Source: an uncultured Rikenellaceae bacterium
Lineage (GTDB): Bacteria; Bacteroidota; Bacteroidia; Bacteroidales; VadinHA17
Direction of reading: 5' to 3'
Assembly: GCA_964446825.1 (NCBI GenBank)
Contig: CAYUQR010000006.1
Coordinates: 18,964 to 82,963 of the forward strand
Length of the DNA: 64,000 bases
The position numbers were made by a program, and so were the translations under genes. Below are positions 25,010 to 41,071 of the stretch, in pieces. The notes under the pieces are model-generated. The model did no database searches and was not told where the DNA came from. It saw only the letters and a list, made by a program, of their open reading frames with translations. Each line of letters starts with the position of its first letter. The first letter of the stretch is position 1.

Positions 25010-25309
25010 TCAATTAATTTTAATCTACAAAAGTATGAATTAGTTTTGAGAACGGAAACTAACTACCCGATCTCCCTTCCTGATACCTTAAACGAGATAT
25101 AATGGACTGAATTATTGATATTTCACTGCTTATAAAAACTAGTGTATGAAAACCCCTAAAATGATCTCATGGAATGATTCAAAAGGATAAATTTGTTTTT
25201 GTGTTTTAAAACATTAATTATTACTGCCACTTTTTGAAATAAAAGACGTCTTTAAAGGGTCAAATGCTAGTACGTTTCTTTTCTTTTTAACTTAACAGCA
25301 TATTTGCTA

Positions 25310-26217: not shown

Positions 26218-29200
26218 ATGGCATTTCTTCATAATATAAGAACGGTTGCAAGATATGAAGCCAAAACATTGAGAAGAAGCTGGTTTTTCAGGCTTTTCTC
26301 TATAGGGGCCCTGGTTATTTTCACATTTTTAAACATTGGGATGTTCTCTCCTGTCGGGGGTGAGCAGTGGAACCTTGTATCGATCTCTTCCTCAGTTCCG
26401 CTTATTAACCTTTACCTTTTGAACATAGGGCAGGCAATTGTTGTCATTTTCCTTGCTGCAGACTTTCTTAAAAGAGATAAAAAGCTTGATACTAATGAAG
26501 TCCTCTATACAAGGTCCATGTCAAATTTTGAATATGTAATAGGAAAAACATTGGGAATTCTACGTCTTTTCCTTGGACTTGATATAATAATCCTCTCAAT
26601 TGGCATGCTTATAAATATCATATCAAAAAGCATGACGGTAGATTTCATGTCGTATATTTCATATCTCCTTATAATAAGCGTACCTACAATTATTTTTAGC
26701 CTGGGACTGGCTTATATGCTTATGTCAGTGATAAAAAACCAGGCAATAACATTCCTTATTCTTCTTGGAATAGCTGCTCTTGATATGTTTTACCTGTGGT
26801 TCAGGATGGGATCCATCTTCGACTATATGGCTTTTGGAATGCCATTGTTCAAATCGGGGATTATAGGGTTTGACAATCCGGGTTTTATCATGAACCAGAG
26901 ACTTCTGTATCTCTTCCTGGGGATTGCGTTGGTACTATGTACAGTATTATTATTCAATCGATTACCCCAATCAAAATTACATAAAAACCTGACAATTATT
27001 TTCCTTGTTCTTTTCATTTCGGGAGCAGCTTTCTGCGGATATAATACCTATTCTGTTTACAGCAATAGTATTAAGGAAAAAAGCCTCACAATCGAAACCA
27101 ACAGACAATTTGAAAATAATGATTTTGCCACTCTCACTGATGCTTCAATTGAATTCATTCACCTGGGTGATAAATTTGAAGCTTCAGCTGACCTTAAAAT
27201 AAAAAATGACAACAAGGCCTCGCTCAATCATTACATTTTTTCTCTTAATCCATCATTGATAGTTCAAAAGGTAACATCAGCCGGAAAAGACCTGAATTTC
27301 AAAAGGTTAAATCAGATTATCGATGTTGATCCAGGGAAGATACTTGATCCCGGACAAACCGACAGTCTGCTTATATCCTATAAAGGTACTATTAACGAAT
27401 CTTTCTGTTATCCTAATTACAGTGATAATCTGAAAGAGAATCCTTACAGGATAGCTATGGTCAACGTTAATAAAAGACAGGCATTCCTGACACCTGACTA
27501 TCTGCTGTTAACCCCCGAGACTTATTGGTACCCGGTTACGTCGCTGAATTATTATCCTTCCAATCCTGCACGTATAAAGATTGATTTTACAAATTACACA
27601 CTTAGGGTTAAGAATGAAAAAGGGTTGACTGCAGTTTCCCAGGGAAGATCAAAAAATATTGAAGGGTACCGGGTTTTTAAACCGGAAAAGCCGCTGACAG
27701 GCCTCACCCTGGCTATTGGAAACTATAAAACTGATACACTCAAAGTAGATTCAGTACAGTACCTGAGCTACTATTTCCCCGGTCACGATTACTATAAAAA
27801 AGATCTTTCAGAGTTAAGAGATACTTTGAAAAACATGATATCAGGCATAATGAGAGAGCTGGAAACAAATTACTCAGTTAAATATCCTTTCAAAACATTA
27901 AGTCTTATTGAAGTTCCCGTTCAGTTCCATTCTTATCCGAAGGAAAGTACACAAACCAGGGCAGAGGTTCAGCCCTCGCTGGTTTTGTTGCCCGAGAAAC
28001 TCTCAACGCTCGATAATGCAGGTTTTTACAGGCAGTTCGTAAGGCAGAAGAAAAGAAATACAAGAAACAACCAGGTAATAACTGATAAAGAGCTACAGGT
28101 ACGGCTGTTTAATAATTTTATACGAAATACATTTATCAGCGGAGAAAACTTCAGGTTTACTAATGGTAATTTTGTTAATGAGCCGACAAGGTATCTTTTG
28201 GGGCCTAGTTTTTATTTTTTCAGGAACAATTTCTATTCCTCGGAATATCCGGTAATAAATGCAGTTTTCGAATCGCACCTCCAACAAATTAATATTAATA
28301 CCCGTAGCGGTGGTTTCCGTTCAATGTTTGGCATACTGACAGATAATGACAGAGCAAATCTTATTCTGAATAAAATAAGTTTCAGGGATCTGCTGACTAA
28401 AGATCCCAAAGGTGATACAATAAGAACAGTATTGAGAGTAAAAGGTGACTGGTTGTTTAACCTTTTAAGATCCAAAGCGGGAATAGATGAGTTTAAAACC
28501 TGGTTTGCCACTTACCTTGATAATCATAGCTTTAAGAAGGTTGATATAGAACTGTTCAATAATGATATTAAAGAAAAATTCGGATTCGATTTCTATCCTT
28601 TTCTTGACGACTGGTTTAACGGGAAAGAACAGCCGGGCTTTCTTTTCACGGATCTCAAAGCAAGCGAGATTATTGTTGGAGACAGATCGAGATACCAGGT
28701 TACTTTCACTGCTTCAAATCCCGAGACAGTTGCAGGTTTGTTCAATGTCTCTTTCCGTACCGGAGGACAAGGAGGTCAGGGAAGAGGAGGAGGACAGACG
28801 GCTATGTTTTTTCAGGGTGGCGGCGGTGGCGGCGGTGGAAGGTTCTCAATCTCAATGCAGGGCAGGGGGATGGAAGCCGAAGACATATCAAAAATTGTCC
28901 TGATGGGACCTCATGAAGCAAAAAGGATCGGAATAATAATTGATGCGCAACCCAGAGCCATGATGATCAACACCCTTTTTGCAAAAAATATTCCCGGAGA
29001 AATTACTTTGCCCATAAACGATATAATCAAAACCAGGGGAGTCGCAAAAGAATTCACCGGAGAGGAGATACTTACAGCAATGCCGCCTTTCACGGATCCT
29101 TCCGAGATTATTGTTGACAATGAGGATCCCGGATTTATAACCAGCAAACAAAATACTTCGAACCCTCTTAAAAGACTCCTGGGTATCCATAATAACAATG

Positions 29201-29682
29201 GAAAGACCTACCAGGAGTTAAGCATGATGTTCATTCCTGAATTCTGGCAACCTGTTGTACAAAGCTCTTACTATGGAAAGTATGTCCGTTCAGCAGTTTA
29301 CACACGTGGAGGCACTGGTGACAGATCAGTAACATGGTATACAATAATTAAAGAACCCGGGTATTATAATATATATAGTTATATCGGAAAGACTGCCGAC
29401 AGAATGATGATAAGGAGGGGTGGTCAGGGAAGAACTGGCGGACCGGGAGTTCCGGGCCAGGAGGAAAAACCGCCTGAAAGTCCATACAAGGATCAGCATT
29501 ATAAGATATACCACGATGAAGGAGTAGACGAAATAACTCTTGATTATGAAAACGCCGAAGGAGGCTGGAATAATCTTGGTAAATATTACCTCTCTCCCGA
29601 CACAGCTAAAGTTGTCCTGACAAATAAATCTGCAGGAAGAATTGTTATCGGAGATGCTATTAAATGGGTGAAACAGAACTGA
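26218..29682 (+). CDS. ABC-2 permease (about 7 TM) fused to a very large periplasmic ectodomain
   Basis: aa 1-275 contain seven hydrophobic helices and the ABC-2 loop motif (DKKLDTNEVLYTRSMS). The ectodomain layout recalls the permease/M1-aminopeptidase fusions of Bacteroidota, but I found no HEXXH. Gly-rich tracts lie at aa 847-884 and 1066-1086. The last ~60 aa (YKIYHDEG..GGWNNLGKYYL..IGDAIKWVK) look golvesin-C-like. Confidence 0.6.
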   Translation: MAFLHNIRTVARYEAKTLRRSWFFRLFSIGALVIFTFLNIGMFSPVGGEQWNLVSISSSVPLINLYLLNIGQAIVVIFLAADFLKRDKKLDTNEVLYTRSMSNFEYVIGKTLGILRLFLGLDIIILSIGMLINIISKSMTVDFMSYISYLLIISVPTIIFSLGLAYMLMSVIKNQAITFLILLGIAALDMFYLWFRMGSIFDYMAFGMPLFKSGIIGFDNPGFIMNQRLLYLFLGIALVLCTVLLFNRLPQSKLHKNLTIIFLVLFISGAAFCGYNTYSVYSNSIKEKSLTIETNRQFENNDFATLTDASIEFIHLGDKFEASADLKIKNDNKASLNHYIFSLNPSLIVQKVTSAGKDLNFKRLNQIIDVDPGKILDPGQTDSLLISYKGTINESFCYPNYSDNLKENPYRIAMVNVNKRQAFLTPDYLLLTPETYWYPVTSLNYYPSNPARIKIDFTNYTLRVKNEKGLTAVSQGRSKNIEGYRVFKPEKPLTGLTLAIGNYKTDTLKVDSVQYLSYYFPGHDYYKKDLSELRDTLKNMISGIMRELETNYSVKYPFKTLSLIEVPVQFHSYPKESTQTRAEVQPSLVLLPEKLSTLDNAGFYRQFVRQKKRNTRNNQVITDKELQVRLFNNFIRNTFISGENFRFTNGNFVNEPTRYLLGPSFYFFRNNFYSSEYPVINAVFESHLQQININTRSGGFRSMFGILTDNDRANLILNKISFRDLLTKDPKGDTIRTVLRVKGDWLFNLLRSKAGIDEFKTWFATYLDNHSFKKVDIELFNNDIKEKFGFDFYPFLDDWFNGKEQPGFLFTDLKASEIIVGDRSRYQVTFTASNPETVAGLFNVSFRTGGQGGQGRGGGQTAMFFQGGGGGGGGRFSISMQGRGMEAEDISKIVLMGPHEAKRIGIIIDAQPRAMMINTLFAKNIPGEITLPINDIIKTRGVAKEFTGEEILTAMPPFTDPSEIIVDNEDPGFITSKQNTSNPLKRLLGIHNNNGKTYQELSMMFIPEFWQPVVQSSYYGKYVRSAVYTRGGTGDRSVTWYTIIKEPGYYNIYSYIGKTADRMMIRRGGQGRTGGPGVPGQEEKPPESPYKDQHYKIYHDEGVDEITLDYENAEGGWNNLGKYYLSPDTAKVVLTNKSAGRIVIGDAIKWVKQN

Positions 29683-29879: not shown

Positions 29880-31367
29880 ATGAAAATAAGAACAAATAAG
29901 AAAATCAGGACCAGCCTTTTGATACTGATATTGTTGCTCACCAATATGCTCTCTTCCAGTGCCCAGACAGGACTTACACTCGAACAGGCATTAAGTATTG
30001 CAGAGACTAATAGTCCTACGATTAAAAAAACCCGTCTGAATCTGATCAGGAGCCAGGAAAATCTGAATGCCCAGAATGCTGCACTAAAATCGAACTTCTC
30101 GCTCACTGTTAACCCTATAGGTTACAACCAGAGCAGAAATTTTAACGACCTTATTTCAAAATGGAACACAACAACAACCACAACCAGTTATGGAGTATTC
30201 ACTGTTTCCCAGCCAATTGTCCTGACTGATGCCAGAATTTCGCTGACGAACAGTTTTGGATATACTGATTCATACAGCGAATATGCGAACATCACTACAA
30301 AAGGATTCAGCAATAATCTTACGCTATCGATTGATCAGCCGCTTTTTACTTATAACAGGACAAAACTGCAGCTCAAAGAGCTTCAACTGGCACTTGAGAA
30401 TGCCCAGCTTAATTATGCAATTCAGCTCCTCTCATTGGAGAATAATGTGACCCAGGCATTTTACGCAGTTTATCAGGCCCAGCAGAGCCTTGATATTGCT
30501 GACCAGGCTTACCAGAACATGCAAAAAAGCTATGAGATCTCCAAAAATAAAGTTAATGCCGGCATTTCAGCACAGTCAGAAATTTTCCAGGCTGAAGTGA
30601 ACCTTGCTACAACAAGGTCTGATTATGAAAACAAGCAGGTTGCCTTTGAAAATGCAAAGGATAACTTTAAAATACTTGTGGGGATGGATCTTTATGATGA
30701 TATTATTGTCATACCAAACATTGCTGTCGATACCGTAAAGGTAGATATAGCATTTGCCATTGATCAGGGACTCGCAAACAGGATGGAATTAAGGCAAAGT
30801 CAGATATCAATTGAAACATCGGAATTTGATCTTATTCAGACCAAGGCACTTAATGAATTCAAGGGTGATCTGGGACTTTCAATCGGACTTTCCGGAGATA
30901 ATCCCAAATTAGGAAATATCTATGCAAAACCAACTGATAACCAGAATGTTGCCTTGTCACTGACTATTCCATTATGGGACTGGGGTGAACGAAAATCAAG
31001 GATAAAGGCAAGCGAGGCAACTATTGAATCAAATAAAATTGACTTCACTTCCGAACAGAATAATATTATTTTAAACATCCGACAGACTTACAGGAATCTT
31101 AATAACCTGAAAAATCAGATAGAGATAGCAGAACAATCAGTTAAAAATGCTCAGCTGACATACGATTTGAATCTAGAAAAATATAAAAACGGAGACCTCA
31201 CCGGGATGGATCTGAATATATATCAGAACCAGCTTTCTGAAAACAAGCTCAATTACACAAATTCATTAATCTCCTATAAGCTAGAACTTCTTAATCTTAA
31301 AATACAGACTCTTTACGATTTTGAAAAGAAACAACCTGTTATTCCGGTAAAGACATTAAAACAGTAA
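29880..31367 (+). CDS. TolC-family outer membrane efflux protein
   Basis: Signal peptide, then LTLEQALSIAETNSPTIKK and two repeated helical/beta halves typical of OMF proteins. Confidence 0.85.
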   Translation: MKIRTNKKIRTSLLILILLLTNMLSSSAQTGLTLEQALSIAETNSPTIKKTRLNLIRSQENLNAQNAALKSNFSLTVNPIGYNQSRNFNDLISKWNTTTTTTSYGVFTVSQPIVLTDARISLTNSFGYTDSYSEYANITTKGFSNNLTLSIDQPLFTYNRTKLQLKELQLALENAQLNYAIQLLSLENNVTQAFYAVYQAQQSLDIADQAYQNMQKSYEISKNKVNAGISAQSEIFQAEVNLATTRSDYENKQVAFENAKDNFKILVGMDLYDDIIVIPNIAVDTVKVDIAFAIDQGLANRMELRQSQISIETSEFDLIQTKALNEFKGDLGLSIGLSGDNPKLGNIYAKPTDNQNVALSLTIPLWDWGERKSRIKASEATIESNKIDFTSEQNNIILNIRQTYRNLNNLKNQIEIAEQSVKNAQLTYDLNLEKYKNGDLTGMDLNIYQNQLSENKLNYTNSLISYKLELLNLKIQTLYDFEKKQPVIPVKTLKQ

Positions 31368-31377: not shown

Positions 31378-32430
31378 ATGAAAAAAAATATATTTGTTTT
31401 TCTTGCCATCGTTTTTGCTGCTGTAAGTTGCAAAAACGATACTCAGAGTCTCAGCGCCGATGTTGAAATCCCTGTTTCTGTACAGGACGTCACGCTGAAG
31501 TCTATTGAAGAATTTGTTAATACGTCAGGAACTGTTTATCCTAAAGGCGATATTGAACTAAAATCTGAGATCACTGCCAATTATTTCCTTGAAAAGAATC
31601 CGAGAACCGGTAAATCCTGGCAATTAAATGATAAAGTTATTGCGGGTGATCTTATAGCCAGATTAGAGGACAGGGAATATATTAATTCCATTAAAATGGA
31701 GACAACCCGGCTTAATCTTGATCTTACAGAGAGTGAACTAAAAAAACAGGAATCACTATATGAAAAAGGAGGAGTTACTCTCAATGACCTGAAAACAGCG
31801 GAAATAAATAATGCGAATGCCAAAACCAACCTGGAAACAGCTAATCTGCAGATGGCAAAAACAAGAATTGTTGCGCCAATAGACGGAGTAATAGTTGACC
31901 TGCCGTATTATACCCAGGGTACCCAGGTGCAAACAGGATCATCTATAGTGAAGATTATGGATTACAAAACAATGTATATGGATGTTCAGTTGCCTGAAAA
32001 ATATATTTCAGTAATTAAGCCCGGGCAAAAGGTTAAACTTACAAATTATACGATTCCAGAAGATACAATAATGGGTAATGTAACTCAGCTGTCTCCTGCA
32101 ATTAATCCTGACACAAGAACCTTTAAAGGCTATATTTCAGTTAGCAATACCAATTTTCTGCTTCGTCCCGGGATGTTTGTAAAAGCTGATATTGTTACCA
32201 ACCATAAAGATTCTGTTATAGTTATTCCAAAGAGTATTATTCTCTCCCGCCAGAGAGGGAAAACAGTATTTATCGTTGATCGTGGTGTTGCCGCTGAAAG
32301 AATTATTGAGACCGGTCTTGAAAATCTGACTGAAGTTGAAGTTACAAAAGGACTGATGAAAAACGAACGCCTGGTGACAAGTGGCTTTGAAACTCTCAGT
32401 AACAGGTCAAAGGTAAAAATCATTAAATAA
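31378..32430 (+). CDS. efflux transporter periplasmic adaptor (membrane fusion protein), lipoprotein
   Basis: Lipoprotein signal (LAIVFAAVSC), a coiled-coil hairpin, and lipoyl/beta-barrel motifs (IVAPIDGVIVDL, PGMFVKADI). Confidence 0.85.
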   Translation: MKKNIFVFLAIVFAAVSCKNDTQSLSADVEIPVSVQDVTLKSIEEFVNTSGTVYPKGDIELKSEITANYFLEKNPRTGKSWQLNDKVIAGDLIARLEDREYINSIKMETTRLNLDLTESELKKQESLYEKGGVTLNDLKTAEINNANAKTNLETANLQMAKTRIVAPIDGVIVDLPYYTQGTQVQTGSSIVKIMDYKTMYMDVQLPEKYISVIKPGQKVKLTNYTIPEDTIMGNVTQLSPAINPDTRTFKGYISVSNTNFLLRPGMFVKADIVTNHKDSVIVIPKSIILSRQRGKTVFIVDRGVAAERIIETGLENLTEVEVTKGLMKNERLVTSGFETLSNRSKVKIIK

Positions 32431-32435: not shown

Positions 32436-35400
32436 ATGAACAGGATTGCCCAATTTGCTGTAAAATATCCCGTTACTGTTTTAATGCTGGTTCTTGGGAT
32501 AGTTCTCCTGGGATTTATATCTTTTGGTAAACTTGGAACAGATCTCTTTCCCGATCTTAACAACCCAAAGATCTTTATTGAGCTTAAAGCGGGCGAGAAA
32601 CCACCTGAAGAGATCGAAAAAAATTATGTTGACCAGATTGAATCTCTTTCGTTGCGCCAGAGTGGCGTAGTGGAGGTATCATCAGTTTCTCAGGTTGGAA
32701 CTGCCACGATAACAGTTGAATATGACTGGAACAAGGATATGGATGAAGCCTTTCTTGATCTTCAGAAAGAGCTCAATTCTTTCCGTCAGAATTCCGACCT
32801 TGAAGACCTTACAATATCGCAATACGATCCGAATGCATCACCTGTAATGATATTAGGCCTCAGAAACAAGAGCATTACTAATCTCGATGATATAAGGAAA
32901 GTGGCCGAAAACTATATCAGGAATGAGTTGGTAAGAATCGAAGGCATTGCTGATGTGAAACTTACAGGAGTTGAGGAGAGCGAAGTTGTTATTGAAACAA
33001 ATAAATATGTTCTTGATTCGTACGGTCTCACCTCTGACGCTATTGCAGCACAGATCAGCAATTACAACAGGAATGTTTCCGGCGGGTCGATTGTGGATAT
33101 GGGCCTTAAATATGTTGTTAAAGGAGTAAGTGTGCTTAAAGATATAAATGACCTGCAGAATATTGTTGTCGGGTTTAAACAGCCGGCATCTTCTGCATCG
33201 GTTTCAGGACAGACAGCCGCTGCCTCATCTGTCTCCGACAGGGTGCCTGTCTATCTCAAAGATGTTGCAACTATAAAATATGAGAATAAGGATCCCCGGA
33301 ACATTGTTACAATTAATGGGGAACGCTGCATCGGCTTATCCATATACAAAGAACCGAAATTCAATACCGTAGATGCAGTAAAGAGTCTGCAGGCTGCAAT
33401 CAAGGATCTTGAAAAAGCCTTGCCCGGATATGAATTTATAAAGGTTTCGGACCAGGGAAGTTATATCCATAATGCAATTGGGGAAGTTAAAAACACTTTA
33501 CTTATCGGAATATTCCTGGCAATATTTGTAATTTATATTTTCCTCAGAAGGATAGGTACTACCCTGGTCATAAGTGTTGCGATTCCGGTTTCGATAATTG
33601 CCACCTTCAACCTGATGTATTTTGATCATCTCACCCTTAATATCATGACTCTTGGAGGGCTGGCGCTGGGTGCCGGAATGCTGGTCGATAATGCTATAGT
33701 GGTACTTGAAAATATTACCAGAAACCGTGAAGAAGGCATGCCTTTAAAGGAAGCGGTTATAAAAGGAACAGGAGAAGTGGGAGGAGCTATTACAGCCTCA
33801 ACCGTAACCACTATTGTTGTTTTTCTTCCGATTGTCTACCTCCATGGTGCTTCAGGTGAAATGTTCAAGGATCAGGCATGGACAGTAGCTTTTGCGCTTC
33901 TTTCTTCCCTTGTGGTGGCTATGCTTGTTATTCCCATGCTTGTTTCAACATTATTCTCCGAAAAAAATGGAAAGGCCGATACAAGCAAGTCAATCCATTT
34001 TAAATGGTATAAAAGCTCTCTTGAGAAAATTGTTGAAAAAAGGAATCTGGTAATTTTACTGGCTTTGGTTTTAATGGGAGCGACTGCATTACTTATACCA
34101 AAACTTGGAAGTGAGTTCATGCCAAAATCCGAATCAGCTGAATTCACCATTGATATTAAACTGCCGGAAGGAACCAGTCTTGCCCGAACCGAAAGTACAT
34201 CCATTGAAGCGGAAAACGTTATCAGGGAACTGTTAGACAATAAAATTAAAATGATATATTGCCAGGCAGGGACAGATAACACAACGACTACAGAGCAGTC
34301 TGCTGAAACTACCGGGGAAAATACTGCTTCCCTGAAAGTGATCCTTGCTGACAACTTTGCCTCCAAAACGGAAGAAGCCATCGCTATTGTCGGGAATTAT
34401 CTTAAAACAGTTCCGGATATGGAAGTAACATTCAAGAGAGAAGAAACTGCTCTGCAGTCATCTCTTGGAACAGATGAAGCTCCTTTTACACTTGAAATAT
34501 CCGGAAAAGATTACGCCGAACTCGAAAGAATAGTTAATGAATCCAAAGCTATTCTGATGAACAATTCCGGTCTTTACAACCTTACAACATCCCTGGATGA
34601 GGGCACACCTGAGGTGGATGTGGCAATTGACAGATTTAAAACAAGTTACTACAATGTAACAGTTGAAAGCATTATCAACCAGTTAAAAAGTTACCTGGCC
34701 GGAGCTTCCGCGGGGAGTTTTGAGAAAGATGGCGAGATGAAAGATATCACCATCAAGCTTGGAGATATATCACTTCAACAATTGCACGATCTTATGATAA
34801 CTGCAGGTACAGTAAAAGTGCCCCTGAGCGAACTGGCCTCCATCCGGACAGTTCTCACCCCCAGGGAGATCACAAGAAGGAATCAGGCCAGAACATGCTA
34901 TGTCTATGCTATGGTAAACAGCAAGATACCATTTGACAAAGTAATAAGGCAAGCCCGGGAATCTCTCAAATCCATTATAATGCCTGTTGATTATAAGATG
35001 GAATTTACGGGAGAAGAACTTAAAAGAAAAGAATCGATGTCTAATCTCACTTTTGCTCTTACCCTGTCGCTGATTCTTGTTTTTATGGTTCTGGCAGCAC
35101 AGTTTGAATCGTTGATACAACCATTCATAATAATGCTGACTATTCCATTAGCGGGTGTAGGTACGGTTCTTACCTTCTTTCTTTTAGACAAGTCGTTGAA
35201 TATGATGGCCTATATAGGGATTATTATGCTTGGCGGGATTGCCGTAAACAATGCGATAATTCTTATCGACCGGATCAACCAGCTAAGGGAAGCAGGAATG
35301 CAAAAGAAGGAAGCGATAGTCCTTGCCGGTACACAGAGGATAAGGCCTATCCTTATGACCAGTCTCACGACTATCCTGGCCCTTCTTCCCCTTACCATAG

Positions 35401-35561
35401 GAATAGGAGAAAGTGCGTCACTGAGATCTCCTATGGCGCTTGCTGTAATTGGAGGCATGATTTCATCCACTCTTCTCACGCTTGCGGTGATCCCATGTGT
35501 ATACTGGGTTTTTGACAGCTTCAGCAAGTGGTTAACAGGTGCAAATAAACAGATTCTATAG
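32436..35561 (+). CDS. RND efflux permease, paralog 1
   Basis: 12-TM AcrB-like pattern: TM4 GAGMLVDNAIVVLENI, TM10 GGIAVNNAIILIDRI, TM11 RIRPILMTSLTT. Confidence 0.9.
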   Translation: MNRIAQFAVKYPVTVLMLVLGIVLLGFISFGKLGTDLFPDLNNPKIFIELKAGEKPPEEIEKNYVDQIESLSLRQSGVVEVSSVSQVGTATITVEYDWNKDMDEAFLDLQKELNSFRQNSDLEDLTISQYDPNASPVMILGLRNKSITNLDDIRKVAENYIRNELVRIEGIADVKLTGVEESEVVIETNKYVLDSYGLTSDAIAAQISNYNRNVSGGSIVDMGLKYVVKGVSVLKDINDLQNIVVGFKQPASSASVSGQTAAASSVSDRVPVYLKDVATIKYENKDPRNIVTINGERCIGLSIYKEPKFNTVDAVKSLQAAIKDLEKALPGYEFIKVSDQGSYIHNAIGEVKNTLLIGIFLAIFVIYIFLRRIGTTLVISVAIPVSIIATFNLMYFDHLTLNIMTLGGLALGAGMLVDNAIVVLENITRNREEGMPLKEAVIKGTGEVGGAITASTVTTIVVFLPIVYLHGASGEMFKDQAWTVAFALLSSLVVAMLVIPMLVSTLFSEKNGKADTSKSIHFKWYKSSLEKIVEKRNLVILLALVLMGATALLIPKLGSEFMPKSESAEFTIDIKLPEGTSLARTESTSIEAENVIRELLDNKIKMIYCQAGTDNTTTTEQSAETTGENTASLKVILADNFASKTEEAIAIVGNYLKTVPDMEVTFKREETALQSSLGTDEAPFTLEISGKDYAELERIVNESKAILMNNSGLYNLTTSLDEGTPEVDVAIDRFKTSYYNVTVESIINQLKSYLAGASAGSFEKDGEMKDITIKLGDISLQQLHDLMITAGTVKVPLSELASIRTVLTPREITRRNQARTCYVYAMVNSKIPFDKVIRQARESLKSIIMPVDYKMEFTGEELKRKESMSNLTFALTLSLILVFMVLAAQFESLIQPFIIMLTIPLAGVGTVLTFFLLDKSLNMMAYIGIIMLGGIAVNNAIILIDRINQLREAGMQKKEAIVLAGTQRIRPILMTSLTTILALLPLTIGIGESASLRSPMALAVIGGMISSTLLTLAVIPCVYWVFDSFSKWLTGANKQIL

Positions 35562-35589
35562 CTCCGATAATCTTCTTACAAAAAAGAAA

Positions 35590-38500
35590 ATGAATTTTAT
35601 TTTAAAAAGAAGAATCCTTATAAGCATGCTCTTTCTGGGGCTTACTATGCTTGGTTACGTGTCTTATAAGAAATTATCAGTAGAGCTTTTCCCTAATGCA
35701 CAGCTTCCGGCTCTTATTGTCCAGGTGGTCACACCTCTCGAAGTGGACCCTTCCTATATTGAAAATCAAGCTATTATTCCTATTGAAGGTGCTGTTGGAA
35801 CTCTTGAAGGCATTGAAAAGATCGAATCAAATATTACCTCCCGTTCCGGTATAATAATGATCTATTACAACCAGAATGCAAACCTGAAGTATGCTAATCT
35901 TAAACTGCAGGAAAAAATTGATGTAGTAAAAAGTTCAATCCCTTCGGAATTTGTAATAAATGTTATTAAGATTGACCTGGAACAGCTTACCAATCAGTTC
36001 ATGGAACTGCAGGTAAGAGGCGAGGGAGGGATTGACAGGATAAGAAATTTTGCCGACAGGGAAATAAAACCGGCATTTGAAAATATCGATGGTATAGCCG
36101 GGGTCCAGGTCTATGGCGGACAGGAGAACTCTATTGAGATCAGGCTTAATGAAAAAGCCTGCAAGGCTAATGGCATATCGATAGGTCAGATAAGGACCCT
36201 GCTGAATAACAACGGGACCAGCAAAACATTTGTCGGGAAAGTTGTTGATGGAAGCAATAAATTCTTTGTGAACGTAACCTCAGATTATACTGATGTAAAA
36301 GAAATCGGAAACATTATTGTAAAGCCTTCCGGACCGATACTCTTAAGGGACATAGCCGATATCTTTTTCGGGGTAAAGGAACAAACATCCTATAGCAGGG
36401 TGAACGGACTTGATGCCGTAACCGTAAGCCTTGTAAACGACAACCAGGCAAACCTGATAGATCTATCACATAAAGCCATTAAAGAGGTCAACGATCTGAA
36501 TAAAACCCTTGCCTCGTCAGGTGTTGAGATTGTTGTTCAGAACAACAATGCGGAAATAATGGAAAGAAATATAAATCAGATCATACACCTTGCAATTACA
36601 GGAGGATTGCTGGCTGTTTTAATCCTCTGGTTCTTCCTAAGGAATATCCGTCTTGTAACAATAATTGCTGTTTCAATACCTGTTTCGGTGTATGCTGCAT
36701 TTAACTTTTTCTATGCTTTCGACGTATCAATTAACAGTCTTACTCTTGTGGGGATGGCTCTGGCCATAGGTATGCTCGTGGATAATTCTGTGGTGGTTCT
36801 TGAGAATATATACCGGCTTGCGGGCCAGGGAAAGAACCCCGACATAGCTGTCAAACAAGGGACCAGCGAAGTATGGAGATCAATATTTGCCGCAACATTA
36901 ACAACAATTATCGTATTTCTTCCTTTTATCTTCTCAGCCAATTTTATGGTGAGAATGATAGGTAAAAATATTGGAGTTTCCATCATTTCCACACTGGTCA
37001 TTTCTCTCTCGGTTGCCTTGCTTCTTATACCCATGGCAACATACTTTCTGCTCACCCGGTCAGCATACAGCAATTCTGAAATATTTAAAAAACTATCCAT
37101 CCACGACAAGCTCATTCAAGCTTATCATCTCGTTCTTAAAGCAAGCATGAGAAATCCGGCGGGGACTATCATCGGAACCCTTGTCGTCTTTTTTGCTGCA
37201 CTTCTTATAAGCCTCACATTAAGCATTAACACAACACAGGAGGTAGAGACGCCTAATTTCAGACTTACTGTTACCATGCCTGGAGGATCAACGCTAGAAA
37301 AAACCGATGCGGTTGTTGCAGAAATAGAATCGAGGCTGGCATCGCTGCCTGAAAAAGAAGACATCATCAGCAAAATTGAAGAAGATAAAGCCACGGTAAC
37401 AATTAACCTTTCAAAAGACTGGGATAAAAAAAGCAAAAGGACCCTGCCTGAAATCAAAAATGACATCTCTGAAAAGACAAAGAATATATCAACTGCGGAA
37501 GTCAACATGGATGAATTGTCGACAAGTGGCGGATTCTCAGGCGGTGGAGGTAGTGATGAAACTTATAACCCGGGTTCTGACTTTATGAACCTTCTGGGTA
37601 TCGGTTCCACAAAAGAGAGTATAATAATAAAAGGCCAGAACTTTGAACAAATGAAGAACCTGGCAGATGACATTAAATCATATCTCGACAATCTTTCAAC
37701 CATCAACAGCTCAAGTGTAAATGTTCAGGATAATAAACCTGAGGTCCATCTGAACTTTGACATGGATTACATAGGAAGAAATAATTTCACGCTCAACAAT
37801 TTATCATCTGCCCTTGCAACATTTGGACAGGAATACTCATCAGGAGCTACTTTCAAGCAGGGAACGGAAAATTATGATATTATGATAAAATATGCTGATG
37901 AGTCGGGAGCTCTAAAAGAAAACAAGGATAAAACGATAGATGATCTCAAGCACCTCGAAGTAAGCAGCAGCAGCGGGACACTTATGGAGATGCAGGAGCT
38001 TTCCAATATTGTATTCTCCACAGGTATGGGTAATATTCACAGGGAAAACCAGGAGAAAAGAGTAACTGTAACTTATAGCTTCAACGATGAAATAAAAAAC
38101 TCCAAAGATCTGCTGGAAGGAGCAAGACTGGGAATTGAATCAATTGTTGCAGGACTGAATATTCCTTCAGGGATTGCTGTAGAGGTAGTCCATGAGGAAG
38201 ATCAGCTTAAAGACTTCTATTACCTGATAGGAGTAGCTTTTCTTCTGATTTATATGATTCTTGCCGCTGTTTTTGAGTCACTCGCTACTCCTGTAGTATT
38301 AATGTTCAGCATCCCTCTGGCTGCACTCGGATCGCTTATAGCACTTATATTAACAGGCAATACCCTGTTAAGCGCCAACACCCTGACCGGTTTTCTGATC
38401 CTGCTGGGAGTAGTTGTAAATAACGGGATAATCCTGATCGATTATACAAATATTTTACGGAAACGTGGAAACCGTATGCACCGGGCTCTTATGACTGCAG

Positions 38501-40377
38501 GAGTTTCAAGATTGCGCCCAATCCTTATAACAGCATCAACCACTATTGTTGCAATGATCCCCCTGGCAATGGGACAGGCTGAATATGTGTCTGCAATAGG
38601 AGCCACATTTGCAATTACGGTTATTGGAGGATTGTCTTTAAGCACCCTCCTTACACTCGTTTTTATCCCAACTTTTTATACAGGACTTGAGAACGCCTTG
38701 ACATGGTTCTATTCATTGAACTGGAAAACCAAAATTATCCAGTTCATTTTACTGGCTATTCTGATATTCTTTATCTACACATACATAGATAAATTCCTCT
38801 GGAAGCTCATTACCACAATTCTTGCAGTTATTCTGGTTCCGGCAGCAACATGGTTCGTAATGAACAGCCTGAGAAAAGCCAGGGAAACGGTAATTGCACC
38901 GGATGAACCTATTAATATTTACATTCAGAGCCTGGTGAAGATCTATGAAAGAGAAAACCGCTGGATAAGAGAGTGGAAAGCCGGGGCAAGGATAAGAAAA
39001 AGGCTTGGCATCGAGAAACAATATAAATCGTGGAAAGATCTTGGCCAGCTTACATGGCAGGTCCCGTTGCTTGGCTTCATTTTTTATTTTACCTATTTCT
39101 ATCTCCACAAGGGATTCTGGATTTTCCTGTTCAGCATTGCAACATGGTTCTACTTATCAGGTGTATGGACAATCATCAAAGGACTTTTCAAAACACTTAC
39201 AAATGAGGAAAAACGGAAATGGCTCAAAAATATAACCAGGATCATCGATATATCAGTTTTCTGGATAATTCCAGTTCTGAACCTTATCTGGTTCCAGGTG
39301 AAATGGGATAATATTGTGGTTGTACTGATCCTTGGCTTTATCTGGTTCTCCGGCCTCTTTATCTACAAAACAGGACAAAAACTCACCAGGGAAAGCATTG
39401 ATATCTACAGGCTTGAAGGAAAGTTCAAAGGGGTCAGAAAAACTGTTTATAAGATCGTAGCAGCAGTTCCCCTCATTGGTAAAAAGAAAAAACCGTTCAA
39501 AGCATTAAGTTGTGTTTCCCTGAACATCGGTAATGGTATGTTTGGACTTCTGGGCCCTAACGGTGCAGGAAAAACCACTCTTATGAGAATAATCTGCGGA
39601 ATACTGGAACAGAGTTATGGAAAGGTTTGGATCAATGGACTCGATACCCAGAAAATGAGAGAAGAACTCCAGGGCCTTATAGGATATCTGCCGCAGGAAT
39701 TCGGGAGTTATGAGAATATGACGGCTAATGAATATCTTCATTACCAGGCTATGCTGAAAAATATTATTGATGCCAGAACCAGGGAAGAGAGAGTTACATA
39801 TGTCCTCCAGGCGGTACATATGGAAGAAAGAAGGCATGATAAAATAGGTTCTTACTCTGGTGGAATGAAACAGAGAATGGGCATTGCCCAGATTCTGCTT
39901 CATCTCCCCAGGATTCTTGTTGTTGATGAACCAACAGCAGGACTCGATCCGAGGGAACGAATCCGGTTCAGAAATCTGCTGGTTGAGTTAAGCCGTGAAA
40001 GAGTTGTTATTTTTTCGACACACATTATTGAAGATATTTCCAGCTCATGCAACCAGGTAGCAGTGCTGAATAAAGGAAGATTAAGATACCTCGGGACTCC
40101 AATCGACATGACATTAGAGGCTGAGGGACACGTATGGCAGTTTAATATCCCGGCAGATGAGTTTGGAACATTTGTTGAAAATCATCTTGTTGTGCATCAT
40201 ATGTCGGAAGGGAATAATGTCAGGGTCAGGGTAATCTCTGAGTTTTCTCCATGGGAGGGAGCAATAAATGCCCTGCCTAATCTGGAAGATGCTTACCTGT
40301 GGCTCTTAAGGAAAAAAGATATTAACGGATCTGCAATTAACAAAACATCTGAAAATGAAAACAAATCGCATATATAA
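35590..40377 (+). CDS. fusion protein: RND efflux permease (paralog 2) + six extra TM helices + ABC ATPase domain
   Basis: Uninterrupted 1612-aa ORF (track 35539..40377; Met18 at 35590, MNFILKRRIL, is the likely start). The RND module spans aa 18-~1055 (LVDNSVVVLEN, VVNNGIILIDY, RLRPILITASTT). Hydrophobic helices lie at aa ~1065-1108 and ~1175-1276. The NBD has Walker A GPNGAGKT (39553-39576), signature SGGMKQR (39856-39876), Walker B ILVVDEP (39913-39933) and H-loop STHII. Confidence 0.75.
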   Translation: MNFILKRRILISMLFLGLTMLGYVSYKKLSVELFPNAQLPALIVQVVTPLEVDPSYIENQAIIPIEGAVGTLEGIEKIESNITSRSGIIMIYYNQNANLKYANLKLQEKIDVVKSSIPSEFVINVIKIDLEQLTNQFMELQVRGEGGIDRIRNFADREIKPAFENIDGIAGVQVYGGQENSIEIRLNEKACKANGISIGQIRTLLNNNGTSKTFVGKVVDGSNKFFVNVTSDYTDVKEIGNIIVKPSGPILLRDIADIFFGVKEQTSYSRVNGLDAVTVSLVNDNQANLIDLSHKAIKEVNDLNKTLASSGVEIVVQNNNAEIMERNINQIIHLAITGGLLAVLILWFFLRNIRLVTIIAVSIPVSVYAAFNFFYAFDVSINSLTLVGMALAIGMLVDNSVVVLENIYRLAGQGKNPDIAVKQGTSEVWRSIFAATLTTIIVFLPFIFSANFMVRMIGKNIGVSIISTLVISLSVALLLIPMATYFLLTRSAYSNSEIFKKLSIHDKLIQAYHLVLKASMRNPAGTIIGTLVVFFAALLISLTLSINTTQEVETPNFRLTVTMPGGSTLEKTDAVVAEIESRLASLPEKEDIISKIEEDKATVTINLSKDWDKKSKRTLPEIKNDISEKTKNISTAEVNMDELSTSGGFSGGGGSDETYNPGSDFMNLLGIGSTKESIIIKGQNFEQMKNLADDIKSYLDNLSTINSSSVNVQDNKPEVHLNFDMDYIGRNNFTLNNLSSALATFGQEYSSGATFKQGTENYDIMIKYADESGALKENKDKTIDDLKHLEVSSSSGTLMEMQELSNIVFSTGMGNIHRENQEKRVTVTYSFNDEIKNSKDLLEGARLGIESIVAGLNIPSGIAVEVVHEEDQLKDFYYLIGVAFLLIYMILAAVFESLATPVVLMFSIPLAALGSLIALILTGNTLLSANTLTGFLILLGVVVNNGIILIDYTNILRKRGNRMHRALMTAGVSRLRPILITASTTIVAMIPLAMGQAEYVSAIGATFAITVIGGLSLSTLLTLVFIPTFYTGLENALTWFYSLNWKTKIIQFILLAILIFFIYTYIDKFLWKLITTILAVILVPAATWFVMNSLRKARETVIAPDEPINIYIQSLVKIYERENRWIREWKAGARIRKRLGIEKQYKSWKDLGQLTWQVPLLGFIFYFTYFYLHKGFWIFLFSIATWFYLSGVWTIIKGLFKTLTNEEKRKWLKNITRIIDISVFWIIPVLNLIWFQVKWDNIVVVLILGFIWFSGLFIYKTGQKLTRESIDIYRLEGKFKGVRKTVYKIVAAVPLIGKKKKPFKALSCVSLNIGNGMFGLLGPNGAGKTTLMRIICGILEQSYGKVWINGLDTQKMREELQGLIGYLPQEFGSYENMTANEYLHYQAMLKNIIDARTREERVTYVLQAVHMEERRHDKIGSYSGGMKQRMGIAQILLHLPRILVVDEPTAGLDPRERIRFRNLLVELSRERVVIFSTHIIEDISSSCNQVAVLNKGRLRYLGTPIDMTLEAEGHVWQFNIPADEFGTFVENHLVVHHMSEGNNVRVRVISEFSPWEGAINALPNLEDAYLWLLRKKDINGSAINKTSENENKSHI

Positions 40378-41071
40378 TATTTTTAATCTCATATATAAGA
40401 TGATCATCTATAACCTGCGGATCATCTTTGCGAACCGGTTCATCTGGTTTCTGGCCGGTTCAGTCCTGTTCTATCTCGGATTATCAGTTATTTATGTTTT
40501 TGATACAGATGTTGCAAATATGAGTGACATGTATGAAGTGTTACTCTTTCCTGGCATTCTTCTGGTTTTCTATCCTACTGTTTTCGGAATACAGAATGAT
40601 CAGGATGCAAGAACGATTGAGATTCTTTTCGGAATTCCCAACTACAGGTATAAGGTCTGGCTTGTAAGGATTGTGCTTATTTTTGCGATCGCCTTTTTGA
40701 TAATACTGGTATTCACCTTTCTTTCTTCTTTACTAATTGTTAAATTTCAAATTTTAAATATGACCGTGCAGGTAATGTACCCCGTTATATTTCTTGGCAC
40801 TATGGCATTCATGCTGTCCACTGTAGTAAGAAGCGGAAATGGCACAGCGGTTGTTATGATCATCTTTGGGTTATTCTTTTTGATACTGAGTGACGGGCTC
40901 CGTAAAAGCCAGTGGAATGTATTTTTAAATCCGTACGGGCTTCCATACGATGTCAATGAAACTACATGGGCAATAATAACTCTTAAAAACAGAATTATAC
41001 TAATGACGGGTATACTGGTGTTCCTGCTTGCCGCTCTTTACAATCTGCAGAAAAGGGAGAAATTCATGTAG
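40355..41071 (+). CDS. small ABC-2 type transporter permease (6 TM)
   Basis: Six hydrophobic helices and the ABC-2 loop motif (QDARTIEILFGIPNYRYKVW). The track start overlaps the upstream stop by 23 nt; the alternative start ATG 40400 removes the overlap. Confidence 0.5.
   Translation: MKTNRIYNIFNLIYKMIIYNLRIIFANRFIWFLAGSVLFYLGLSVIYVFDTDVANMSDMYEVLLFPGILLVFYPTVFGIQNDQDARTIEILFGIPNYRYKVWLVRIVLIFAIAFLIILVFTFLSSLLIVKFQILNMTVQVMYPVIFLGTMAFMLSTVVRSGNGTAVVMIIFGLFFLILSDGLRKSQWNVFLNPYGLPYDVNETTWAIITLKNRIILMTGILVFLLAALYNLQKREKFM

What the first reader, a model, noticed from the sequence alone, without database searches (positions are those of the whole stretch)
35590..40377. Single ORF covalently joining an RND permease to an ABC ATPase through extra membrane helices
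The supplied translation is open for 1612 aa. Residues 18-~1055 are a complete 12-TM RND permease. Six further hydrophobic helices follow (about aa 1065-1083, 1090-1108, 1175-1190, 1193-1213, 1236-1252 and 1258-1276). After them comes a complete ABC nucleotide-binding domain with Walker A, Q-loop, signature, Walker B and H-loop. The helix count of 12+6 is even, so the NBD lands in the cytoplasm like the RND termini. The fusion is therefore topologically coherent rather than an obvious artefact. I know of no characterised transporter in which an RND pump carries its own ABC ATPase. It would imply dual energisation, ATP-gated regulation of an RND, or an RND used as a scaffold for an ABC-2 exporter.
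Basis: partly seen in the sequence, partly recalled or inferred. Interest (0 to 1): 0.9.

Follow-up and report, generated by a model that had tools for sequence, protein, structure and literature searches.

The report
RND efflux pump fused to ABC ATPase
A single, genuinely conserved gene in uncultured Bacteroidota and related phyla joins a proton-driven RND efflux pump subunit to an ATP-driven ABC transporter engine, a combination that I could not find described in the literature and whose energy coupling is unknown.

Summary
Window 35590-40377 (+) is one 1595-aa gene. It encodes a full RND permease, a 2-TM hairpin, and an ABC-2/DrrA-type ATPase with all catalytic motifs.

It is not an assembly artefact. 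More than 120 protein clusters at 81-100% identity carry the same fusion, as do about 15 full-length lineages down to 34% identity (Bacteroidota, KSB1 and Latescibacterota by source names). In 72 of 73 informative metagenome loci the junction lies in one ORF.

- Four of the "six linker helices" are an insertion inside the ATPase, between its first strand (with the presumed A-loop Tyr) and the rest of the domain.
- The overlapping 238-aa downstream ORF is a NosY-like ABC-2 permease. It is present in 67 of 68 loci.
- An unfused RND paralog, an MFP and an OMF lie directly upstream, an MdtABC-like layout.
- A free ATPase 44% identical to the fused one, plus a giant ABC-2 permease, lie further upstream.

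Best reading: a type-V ABC exporter physically docked onto a heteromeric tripartite RND pump for two-stage export. ATP gating or powering of the RND is not excluded. Function, substrate and stoichiometry are untested. No paper describing such a fusion was found.

The parts
35590..40377 (+). RND2::ABC fusion gene (1595 aa plus stop)
   Evidence: Single ORF. Pfam ACR_tran plus ABC_tran. Full-length homologues of 1550-1606 aa. The junction is in one ORF in 72 of 73 informative loci.
35590..38694 (+). RND permease domain (aa 1-1035, 12 TM, two periplasmic loops)
   Evidence: ACR_tran aa 2-1031, E 5e-157. Closest solved structure is MdtB 9lyq_B, E 7e-64. TM4 reads LVD398-N399 and TM10 reads V-N944-N945. 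R974, R976 and T981 are kept.
38716..38874 (+). 2-TM hairpin linker (aa 1043-1095) after RND TM12
   Evidence: Hydropathy. AF2 helices at 1045-1065 and 1069-1095. It stays with the RND half in the naturally split version L081.
38911..38946 (+). Displaced ATPase beta1 strand with presumed A-loop Tyr (aa 1108-1119, INIYIQSLVKIY)
   Evidence: I1110 and K1117 are invariant and Y1119 is at least 90% conserved. It aligns with the uninterrupted N-terminus 'KIEIQGLNKIYP' of the paralogous free ATPase. AF2 predicts a strand at 1110-1119 with pLDDT about 91.
39031..39393 (+). 4-TM insertion inside the ATPase domain (aa 1148-1268)
   Evidence: AF2 gives four long helices. Hydropathy agrees. No Pfam match. 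Homologues occur only in this fusion family: 94 representatives in 1.84 billion proteins.
39457..40119 (+). ABC ATPase core (aa 1290-1510)
   Evidence: ABC_tran E 2.7e-27. Best NCBIfam matches are GldA and DrrA types. Best PDB sequence matches are ABCA1/3/4/7, TM0544, TM1403, NosF and LptB. Mean pairwise identity is 64%, the most conserved part of the protein.
40120..40314 (+). C-terminal accessory domain of the ATPase (aa 1511-1575)
   Evidence: AF2 predicts beta strands at 1515-1549. The whole model aligns over 274 columns with TM_1403 (4yer), which is 285 residues long. The paralogous free ATPase shares this domain.
40355..41071 (+). 238-aa ABC-2 (type V) permease, overlapping the fusion's 3' end by 23 nt
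   Evidence: Six hydrophobic segments. The AF2 model (pLDDT 65) matches NosY 7o0y_D (E 6e-4, TM 0.61), and all top-50 hits are type-V ABC membrane domains. Distant orthologues hit ABC2_membrane_2 at 5.8e-8 and ABC2_membrane_3 at 1e-5. Found downstream in 67 of 68 loci.
32436..35561 (+). RND1, unfused paralogous RND permease (1041 aa)
   Evidence: ACR_tran E 4e-220. It is 27% identical to RND2. It lies directly upstream of the fusion in every locus with enough flank.
31378..32430 (+). Periplasmic adaptor (MFP)
   Evidence: HlyD_D23 and HlyD_3. TIGR01730 RND_mfp at 181 bits, above its cutoff of 94.9.
29880..31367 (+). Outer-membrane factor (TolC-like)
   Evidence: Pfam OEP, E 8e-53. Best NCBIfam match is the TolC family.
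26218..29682 (+). 1154-aa ABC-2-type permease with about 870 aa of extracytoplasmic domain (Golvesin_C at the C-terminus); linked accessory gene
   Evidence: N-terminal TM cluster. Golvesin_C. An orthologue carries ABC2_membrane_2. Syntenic in 37 of the 80 metagenome loci and in L088.
25304..26203 (+). Free-standing ABC ATPase (299 aa), paralog of the fused ATPase; linked accessory gene
   Evidence: ABC_tran E 4e-32. It is 44% identical to the fused ATPase over 273 aa, E 8e-78. An orthologue is present in L088.

Best explanation
SHOWN: Window 35590-40377 is a real, conserved gene for one about 180-kDa inner-membrane polypeptide. Its order is: RND permease (12 TM), a 2-TM hairpin, the ABC ATPase beta1 strand with the presumed A-loop Tyr, a 4-TM insertion, then the rest of a catalytically intact ABC-2/DrrA-class ATPase with a C-terminal accessory domain.

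SHOWN: It is the fourth gene of a conserved operon OMF-MFP-RND1-RND2::ATPase-permease. The last gene, which overlaps the fusion by 23 nt, encodes a NosY-like 6-TM ABC-2 permease. That permease is the natural membrane partner of the fused ATPase.

INFERRED MECHANISM: A type-V ABC exporter (fused ATPase plus the 238-aa permease) is physically docked onto an MdtBC-like heteromeric RND tripartite pump. ATP hydrolysis would extract or flip an amphipathic or lipidic substrate from the cytoplasm or inner leaflet. The tethered RND would capture it from the outer leaflet or periplasm and expel it through the MFP and OMF. This hard-wires the two-step efflux that separate pumps are known to perform cooperatively.

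INFERRED STOICHIOMETRY: The constant unfused paralog RND1 offers a way round the 3-fold versus 2-fold symmetry mismatch. A trimer with two fused subunits and one RND1 would present exactly two ATPase domains. Alternatively, one fused ATPase could pair with the paralogous free ATPase.

Confidence is about 0.97 for the architecture. It is about 0.45 for the relay mechanism. The overall figure below refers to the mechanism.
For: The fusion is real.
- It is one ORF.
- More than 120 clusters at 81-100% identity are all 1566-1606 aa and carry the same Pfam families.
- Fifteen further full-length lineages reach down to 34% identity. Linker length is 275-301 aa in all of them.
- Source names place them in Bacteroidales, Rikenellaceae, Cyclobacteriaceae, KSB1 and Latescibacterota. 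Melioribacteraceae fragments also occur.
- The junction is in one ORF in 72 of 73 informative metagenome loci, and 47 of those ORFs have at least 1500 codons.

The ATPase is under the strongest constraint.
- Its core shows 64% mean pairwise identity, against 29-56% for the RND parts. All catalytic motifs are invariant.

The ATPase is split.
- The conserved 'I.I.NLVKIY' segment aligns with the contiguous N-terminus of the 44%-identical free ATPase.
- AF2 (mean pLDDT 82.6) predicts it as a strand, followed by four TM helices and then the ATPase core.

An ABC-2 partner exists.
- The 238-aa ORF model matches NosY, PmtD, CcmB, ABCG and ABCA membrane domains.
- Its distant orthologues hit ABC2_membrane Pfam families.
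- It lies downstream in 67 of 68 loci, usually overlapping or within a few nt of the fusion's end.

The RND context is that of a tripartite pump.
- OMF, MFP and an RND1 paralog lie directly upstream.
- MdtB is the closest solved structure.
- The MdtB2C precedent for heterotrimers with divided roles is described in PMC4338810.

The modules are separable at the predicted boundary.
- In L081-83 the gene is split just before beta1, into an RND plus 2-TM gene and a separate beta1-4TM-ATPase gene.
Against: - There is no experimental or expression evidence. All carriers seen are MAGs or metagenome contigs.
- Nothing shows that substrate passes from the ABC part to the RND part. No substrate is indicated by the neighbouring genes.
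- Both RND paralogs lack the canonical HAE-1 relay residues: D408 is Asn and K940 is Asn. Proton drive of the RND is therefore assumed, not shown.
- The role of the 4-TM insertion is unexplained by a simple relay model.
- The 238-aa model has only moderate confidence (pLDDT 65).
- Stoichiometry is pure inference.
- The split variant (L081) shows that covalent linkage is not strictly required.
- One variant (L005) lacks both the insertion and the 238-aa gene.
Confidence: 0.45

Rival explanations
1. ATP-gated or ATP-powered RND. The ATPase domains, through the 4-TM insertion next to the presumed A-loop Tyr and the 2-TM hairpin, transmit nucleotide-dependent movements to the RND transmembrane domain. 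They would either drive its cycle or switch it on and off. The 238-aa protein would serve as stator or membrane anchor for the ATPase dimer rather than as a translocation path. This resembles mechanotransmission in MacB, LolCDE, FtsEX and NosDFY.
For: - Both RND paralogs, in every locus examined, lack the AcrB D408 and K940 equivalents: TM4 reads D-N and TM10 reads N-N.
- The insertion sits immediately after the tyrosine that I take to be the adenine-stacking A-loop residue. That is an unusual place for an insertion and is suited to coupling (the role of the Tyr rests on general ABC knowledge).
- The ATPase is the most conserved part of the protein.
- The closest structural relatives of the permease include NosY, part of a non-canonical ABC system.
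Against: - TM4 Asp398 and TM11 Arg974 are invariant and Arg976 is nearly so. A membrane-embedded acid/base pair for ion coupling therefore persists.
- The D-N/N-N pattern is shared by the unfused RND1, so it is a clade trait and not specific to the fusion.
- No precedent exists for ATP-driven RND cycling.
- The L005 variant works without the 4-TM insertion.
Confidence: 0.2
2. Heterodimeric ABC-2 exporter anchored to the RND. The fused ATPase pairs with the paralogous free ATPase (25304-26203). The 238-aa permease pairs with the 1154-aa permease that carries the large periplasmic domain. One asymmetric ABC machine would then sit beside a trimer made of one fused RND2 and two RND1 subunits.
For: - The free ATPase is 44% identical to the fused one, including the C-terminal domain.
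- The ATPase and big-permease pair is syntenic with the operon in 37 of the 80 metagenome loci and in the Latescibacterota-like locus L088.
- In the L005 variant a big-permease homologue lies between RND1 and the fusion, and no 238-aa gene is present.
Against: - The KSB1 locus L089 has the core MFP-RND1-fusion-235aa with no adjacent ATPase or big permease.
- Both ATPases have fully canonical motifs, so there is no sign of the degenerate site typical of obligate heterodimers.
- No sequence relation was detectable between the two permeases.
Confidence: 0.2
3. Passive tether. This would be a Rosetta-stone fusion that only ensures co-expression, co-localisation or stability of two transporters serving the same pathway. 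There would be no mechanical or substrate coupling between them.
For: - A natural gene fission occurs at the domain boundary in three samples.
- The linker sequence is poorly conserved, at 22-34% identity.
Against: - The fusion, with constant linker length, has persisted across lineages that source names assign to several phyla.
- The 2-TM plus 4-TM membrane elements are costly for a mere tether.
- The ATPase insertion is specific to this family.
Confidence: 0.14
4. Artefact: a frameshift, a chimeric assembly join, or a decaying pseudogene.
For: None found. One short contig (L110) and L081-83 show splits.
Against: - Independent assemblies from four sources carry the same open junction.
- The junction is in one ORF in 72 of 73 informative loci.
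- Composition is even across the junction.
- All catalytic motifs are invariant.
Confidence: 0.01

Closest known systems
MdtABC-TolC / MuxABC-OpmB (heteromeric RND tripartite pumps)
   Same: Two adjacent paralogous RND genes share one MFP and an OMF. MdtB is the closest solved structure to the RND part (E 7e-64). There is a precedent for a 2:1 heterotrimer with a division of labour between the subunits (PMC4338810).
   Different: The paralogs are only 27% identical, against about 50% for MdtB and MdtC. Neither reaches the MdtB or MdtC NCBIfam cutoff. TM4 reads D-N and TM10 reads N-N instead of DD and K. One paralog carries six extra TM helices and an ABC ATPase.
Type V (ABC-2) exporters: NosFY(D), PmtCD, DrrAB, ABCG and ABCA
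   Same: The ATPase class matches: best hits are GldA, DrrA, NosF, ABCA and TM0544. The separate 6-TM permease has a predicted NosY-like fold and carries the 'ER-x-x-T-x-E' motif in distant orthologues.
   Different: The ATPase is covalently attached to an RND permease. Its beta1 strand is separated from the core by a 4-TM insertion. No Pfam or NCBIfam ABC-2 model detects the window's own permease.
MacAB-TolC / DevBCA-HgdD (ABC-driven tripartite pumps)
   Same: An ABC ATPase is encoded in the same operon as an MFP and a TolC-like OMF.
   Different: There is no MacB/FtsX-type permease and no MacB periplasmic domain. The component that should contact the MFP and OMF here is an RND, not the ABC permease.
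GldAFG gliding-motility ABC transporter of Bacteroidota
   Same: The best NCBIfam model for both ATPases is GldA. It is an ABC-2 system in the same phylum. The upstream big permease recalls a GldF/GldG-like arrangement, which I say from memory only.
   Different: Scores are far below the GldA cutoff (173 and 191 against 402.6). No GldF or GldG models match. There is an RND association.

Membership tests
RND superfamily (Pfam ACR_tran; HAE-1-like) | Full-length 12-TM permease with two large periplasmic loops | tested here: met
   ACR_tran covers aa 2-1031 against model positions 3-1018 of 1021, E 5e-157. Full-length alignment to MdtB.
RND superfamily (Pfam ACR_tran; HAE-1-like) | Canonical proton relay: TM4 Asp-Asp (AcrB D407/D408) plus TM10 Lys (K940) | tested here: not met
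   TM4 reads 'LVD398-N399' and TM10 reads 'V-N944-N945' in the fusion. The same holds in RND1. These residues are invariant in 16 homologues.
RND superfamily (Pfam ACR_tran; HAE-1-like) | TM11 Arg/Thr (AcrB R971, R973, T978) | tested here: met
   'RLRPILIT': R974 and T981 are invariant and R976 is at least 90% conserved.
RND superfamily (Pfam ACR_tran; HAE-1-like) | Score above the curated NCBIfam subfamily cutoff (RND_permease_1/2, TIGR00915) | tested here: not met
   The best match is NF033617 at 456 bits, against a cutoff of 1250.
RND superfamily (Pfam ACR_tran; HAE-1-like) | Operon partners MFP and OMF | tested here: met
   OEP and HlyD/RND_mfp genes lie directly upstream. This is conserved in all loci with enough flank.
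MdtBC-type heteromeric RND | Two adjacent paralogous RND genes with one MFP | tested here: met
   RND1 at 32436-35561 and RND2 at 35590 onward, 27% identical. Conserved in L001, L088, L089 and in the metagenome loci with enough upstream flank.
MdtBC-type heteromeric RND | Membership of the MdtB/MdtC equivalog | tested here: not met
   NF007798 scores 252 bits against a cutoff of 1584. NF007905 scores 249 bits against 1774.
MdtBC-type heteromeric RND | 2:1 heterotrimer assembly | not testable with these tools
   This needs co-purification, cryo-EM or multimer modelling.
ABC ATPase (Pfam ABC_tran) | Walker A, Q-loop, signature, Walker B, D-loop region and H-loop | tested here: met
   GPNGAGKT 1322-1329, Q1369, SGGMKQ 1423-1428, D1446-E1447, 'AGLD' 1450-1453 and H1478. 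All are invariant in 16 sequences.
ABC ATPase (Pfam ABC_tran) | Contiguous N-terminal beta1/A-loop leading directly into beta2 and Walker A | tested here: not met
   Beta1 (aa 1108-1119) is separated from 'KPFKALSCVSL' (aa about 1300) by about 180 aa that include 4 TM helices.
ABC-2 / type V exporter | DrrA/ABCA/NosF-class ATPase | tested here: met
   The top NCBIfam models are GldA and DrrA, both below cutoff. The top PDB sequence matches are ABCA1/3/4/7, TM0544, TM1403 and NosF.
ABC-2 / type V exporter | Six-TM ABC-2 permease partner | tested here: met
   The 238-aa ORF has six hydrophobic segments. Foldseek hits are NosY, PmtD, CcmB, ABCG and ABCA membrane domains. Orthologues hit ABC2_membrane_2 and ABC2_membrane_3. 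The window's own copy is below Pfam detection.
ABC-2 / type V exporter | ATPase dimer plus permease dimer assembly and ATP-driven export | not testable with these tools
   This needs biochemistry or a structure.
MacB-type tripartite ABC pump | FtsX/MacB permease with a periplasmic domain | tested here: not met
   No FtsX or MacB_PCD match in any gene of the cluster.

The most novel reading that the evidence does not exclude
The fused ATPase drives or gates the RND conformational cycle itself. This would be an RND pump energised by ATP, or dually by ATP and an ion gradient. Nucleotide state would be transmitted from the presumed A-loop Tyr through the family-specific 4-TM insertion and the 2-TM hairpin into an RND transmembrane domain that has lost the canonical D408/K940 relay residues.
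Probability: 0.2. Interest if true: 0.95.

Novelty: new variant of a known kind. Interest (0 to 1): 0.78.

Why it matters
RND pumps and ABC exporters are treated as two separate energetic classes of efflux machinery, driven by ion gradient and by ATP respectively. Their cooperation in two-step efflux is known only between independent proteins.

A covalent RND-ABC chimera raises several testable questions. It is conserved for long enough to be shared by Bacteroidota, KSB1 and Latescibacterota, and it has its own ABC-2 permease and a transmembrane insertion inside the ATPase.
- How is a 3-fold RND reconciled with a 2-fold ABC?
- Can substrates be channelled from the cytoplasm or inner leaflet straight into a tripartite pump?
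- Can ATP regulate or power an RND?

It also flags an RND clade with a non-canonical relay (D-N / N-N). In addition, it defines a family currently annotated only as 'efflux RND transporter permease subunit', 'ATP-binding cassette domain-containing protein' or 'hypothetical protein'.

Tried and rejected
- **Artefact or frameshift.** Rejected.
- **Genome-contig scan with the junction alignment.** It returned only one true relative (L001) and one variant (L005). A species-level taxonomic census could not be made. Taxonomy rests on source names.
- **P0144 (526 aa) as a stand-alone linker-plus-ATPase protein.** Rejected. Its cluster contains a 1567-aa member, so it is a fragment. Most of the roughly 590-aa hits are on short contigs of about 1.5-3.5 kb or are labelled 'partial' by their source. 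One checked in context (P0247) starts at a contig end, and another (P0226) lies just downstream of a broken RND2 gene.
- **Are the six extra helices a degenerate ABC-2 permease?** hhalign of the linker profile against the 238-aa family gave probability 0.2%. The 238-aa family against the big permease's N-terminus gave 0.9%. No relation was detectable.
- **Profile search of the 238-aa family against PDB sequences.** Nothing meaningful. Its identity came only from fold comparison and from distant orthologues.
- **M1-peptidase activity of the big permease.** No HExxH or GxMEN motif.
- **Promoter and terminator scan.** Counts did not exceed shuffles, and the consensus is inappropriate for Bacteroidota.
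- **Close relatives of the L005-type junction in metagenomes.** None found. That variant rests on one contig.
- **Literature.** Five full-text searches and a term search of one large review found no description of an RND-ABC fusion.
- **Model coordinates.** It was not measured.
Full report
**1. The observation**

The ORF listing returns a single ORF, 35539..40377 (+), of 1612 aa from a GTG. Its translation has no internal stop. The first ATG, at 35590, gives a 1595-aa protein starting MNFILKRR. It lies 28 nt after the stop of the preceding gene.

Pfam finds ACR_tran over aa 2-1031 (E 5e-157, essentially the whole model) and ABC_tran over aa 1311-1450 (E 2.7e-27). Hydropathy and an AlphaFold2 model of aa 1036-1595 (42-sequence alignment, mean pLDDT 82.6) both give six extra helices.

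Walker A, the Q-loop, the signature, Walker B and the H-loop are all present. The Lys/Arg-rich loops are the ones predicted to be cytoplasmic, read from the sequence. GC content is flat across the junction.

**2. It is not an artefact**

A search of 5.8 billion proteins returned more than 120 clusters at 81-100% identity. All are 1566-1606 aa with the same Pfam set. They come from ENA, JGI, NCBI and Logan assemblies. JGI already names them 'AcrB / ABC-type multidrug transport system ATPase subunit'.

A search of 1.84 billion 50%-identity representatives with the linker alone (aa 1036-1292) found only 94 proteins. About 15 are full-length fusions of 1550-1587 aa, and the rest are mostly fragments. 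The linker is therefore specific to this family.

Sixteen diverged full-length sequences (34-54% identity) align end to end, with a linker of 275-301 aa in all. Source names place them in Bacteroidales, Rikenellaceae, Cyclobacteriaceae, candidate division KSB1 and Latescibacterota. Fragments are named Odoribacter, Chryseosolibacter, Melioribacteraceae and one Spirochaetales bin. The named groups other than the Spirochaetales bin belong, to my knowledge, to the FCB group. All carriers seen are MAGs or metagenome contigs.

A metagenome scan gave 80 further loci. In my phmmer census the RND-linker(-ATPase) junction lies in one ORF in 72 of 73 informative loci. Of these, 47 ORFs have at least 1500 codons, and one short contig is split.

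**3.

(a) *The six helices are not one linker.* The conserved segment 'I-x-I-x-N-L-V-K-I-Y' (aa 1108-1119) has I1110 and K1117 invariant and Y1119 at least 90% conserved. It is the first beta strand of the ATPase and carries what I take to be the A-loop Tyr. It aligns with 'KIEIQGLNKIYP', which in the paralogous free ATPase runs straight into '...ALKDINLEFGTGMFGLLGPNGAGKST'. In the fusion, about 180 residues intervene before 'KPFKALSCVSLNIGNGMFGLLGPNGAGKTT'. They comprise an amphipathic helix and four TM helices. AF2 predicts aa 1110-1119 as a beta strand with pLDDT about 91. The order is therefore RND, 2-TM hairpin, beta1, 4-TM insertion, ATPase core, C-terminal domain.

(b) *The module boundary is confirmed by nature.* In three samples (L081-83) a tandem duplication of roughly 50-60 nt carrying a stop codon splits the gene just before beta1. 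The products are an 1101-aa RND-plus-hairpin and a 483-aa beta1-4TM-ATPase.

(c) *The ATPase core is the most conserved part of the protein.* Mean pairwise identity is 64%, against 56% and 46% for the RND transmembrane blocks, 29-37% for the periplasmic loops and 22-34% for the linker. All catalytic residues are invariant.

(d) *The ATPase belongs to the ABC-2/type V class.* The best NCBIfam models are GldA and DrrA, both below cutoff. The best PDB sequence matches are ABCA1/3/4/7, TM0544, TM1403, NosF and LptB.

**4. The neighbourhood**

The 238-aa ORF at 40355-41071 overlaps the fusion by 23 nt. It has six hydrophobic segments and no Pfam or NCBIfam hit of its own.

Its AF2 model has moderate confidence (pLDDT 65, pTM 0.65). 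The model matches NosY best (7o0y_D, E 6e-4, TM 0.61). All 50 best hits are type-V ABC membrane domains: NosY, PmtD, CcmB, ABCG2/G25/G5-G8 and ABCA.

Its distant orthologues in L088 and L089 hit ABC2_membrane_2 (5.8e-8) and ABC2_membrane_3 (1e-5). They also carry an 'ER-x-x-T-x-E' motif, which I recognise from memory as typical of ABC-2 permeases. A homologue follows the fusion in 67 of 68 loci, usually overlapping or within a few nucleotides. This is the ABC-2 permease partner of the fused ATPase.

Upstream lie a TolC-like OMF, an MFP and a second, unfused RND (RND1, 1041 aa, 27% identical to RND2). MFP-RND1-fusion-permease is the conserved core (L001, L088, L089 and the metagenome loci).

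Further upstream are a free ABC ATPase and a 1154-aa protein. The ATPase (299 aa) is 44% identical to the fused one over 273 aa, including the C-terminal domain (E 8e-78). The 1154-aa protein has an ABC-2-like N-terminal TM cluster and about 870 extracytoplasmic residues ending in Golvesin_C. The big permease is syntenic in 37 of the 80 metagenome loci. Both genes are present in the Latescibacterota-like locus L088. Neither is adjacent in the KSB1 locus L089.

A single contig (L005) shows a variant: a 1437-aa fusion without the 4-TM insertion. It has no 238-aa gene, and a big-permease homologue lies between RND1 and the fusion. No close relatives of that variant were found.

**5. The RND part**

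The closest solved structure is MdtB. Both RND1 and RND2, in every locus examined, have TM4 'D-N' and TM10 'N-N' where AcrB has D407-D408 and K940. The TM11 Arg and Thr residues are kept.

One membrane-embedded Asp and an Arg persist, so ion coupling is plausible. However, the canonical HAE-1 relay is not met. Because the unfused paralog shares this pattern, it is a property of the clade, not of the fusion.

**6. How it most likely works**

*Shown:* a complete ABC-2 system (ATPase plus permease) and a complete tripartite RND system (OMF, MFP, two RND paralogs) are encoded together. The ATPase is covalently attached to one RND paralog.

*Inferred:* the ABC-2 exporter is docked on the RND. A substrate extracted or flipped from the cytoplasm or inner leaflet at the expense of ATP would be delivered to the RND. 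The RND would take it from the outer leaflet or periplasm and expel it through the MFP and OMF.

*Inferred:* the invariable presence of an unfused paralog offers a solution to the trimer/dimer mismatch. MdtB2C is the precedent for a 2:1 RND heterotrimer with divided roles (PMC4338810). Two fused subunits per trimer would give two ATPase domains. Alternatively, one fused ATPase pairs with the free paralogous ATPase.

I put about 0.45 on this relay model. I put about 0.2 on ATP gating or powering of the RND. That model is favoured by the missing relay residues and by the position of the insertion next to the presumed A-loop Tyr. The remainder is about 0.2 on the heterodimeric-ABC variant, about 0.14 on a passive tether and about 0.01 on artefact.

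**7. Comparison with what is known, and novelty**

It works like a combination of an MdtABC-type pump and a NosFY/DrrAB-type exporter. By curated cutoffs it is a member of neither the MdtB/C equivalogs nor the GldA/DrrA families. It fails two textbook features: the DD/K relay and a contiguous ATPase N-terminus.

It is not a MacB-type ABC tripartite pump, because no FtsX or MacB domains are present.

Five full-text searches and a term search of one comprehensive review of tripartite pumps found no description of an RND-ABC fusion. The proteins sit in databases under generic or 'hypothetical' names.

I rate it a new variant of known kinds, meaning a new composite architecture, with high interest. 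Function, substrate, stoichiometry and expression as a single polypeptide all remain to be shown.

Noticed in passing
window 32436-35561 and 35590-38694; also L001, L005, L081: Both RND paralogs have TM4 'VDN' and TM10 'VNN' in place of AcrB D407-D408 and K940, and the L005 fusion has 'IDS' and 'PNS'. R971, R973 and T978 equivalents are kept. This may mark an RND clade with a non-canonical ion-coupling site.
   Followed up: partly
window 25304-29682: A second ABC-2 system lies upstream. It has a DrrA/GldA-like ATPase (299 aa) that is paralogous to the fused ATPase. It also has a 1154-aa permease with about 870 extracytoplasmic residues ending in Golvesin_C. An orthologue shows a faint Peptidase_M1 signal, but no HExxH motif is present. 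The big-permease gene precedes the OMF gene in 37 of the 80 metagenome loci; both genes are present in L088.
   Followed up: partly
L081 7920-8060 (also L082, L083): A natural fission of the fusion gene. A tandem duplication of roughly 50-60 nt covering the 'EYI..D..LRI...VVKIYD' region carries a stop codon. It yields a separate RND-plus-2TM gene (1101 aa) and a beta1-4TM-ATPase gene (483 aa). It is seen in three samples.
   Followed up: yes
L005 2127-9233: A variant architecture on one contig of an unclassified MAG. The RND-ABC fusion is 1437 aa, with a short linker and a soluble loop of about 50 aa in place of the 4-TM insertion. A 922-aa big-permease homologue lies between RND1 and the fusion. 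There is no 238-aa permease gene, and the OMF gene is downstream.
   Followed up: partly
window 29687-29746: A purine-rich tandem array (AGAAAGGG, about 7.5 copies) in the 198-nt gap between the big-permease gene and the OMF gene.
   Followed up: no
window 41079-41201: Two octamer tandem arrays lie immediately after the 238-aa ORF, between it and the convergent radical-SAM gene: GTCTTGCG (about 5.9 copies) and TTGCGCCT (about 5.2 copies).
   Followed up: no
window 41201-47171: A convergent gene (41201-42145, minus strand) has sub-threshold radical SAM similarity (29.0 bits against a cutoff of 29.5). It is followed by rimP-nusA-infB on the plus strand, so the cluster is chromosomal.
   Followed up: no
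L085/L086 7703-11800; L087 3957-11266: In some MAG assemblies the fusion gene is broken into pieces. L085 and L086 have 733 aa plus 599 aa. L087 has many small fragments. These are probably assembly or sequencing errors rather than biology. They explain why many database entries are labelled 'partial'.
   Followed up: no
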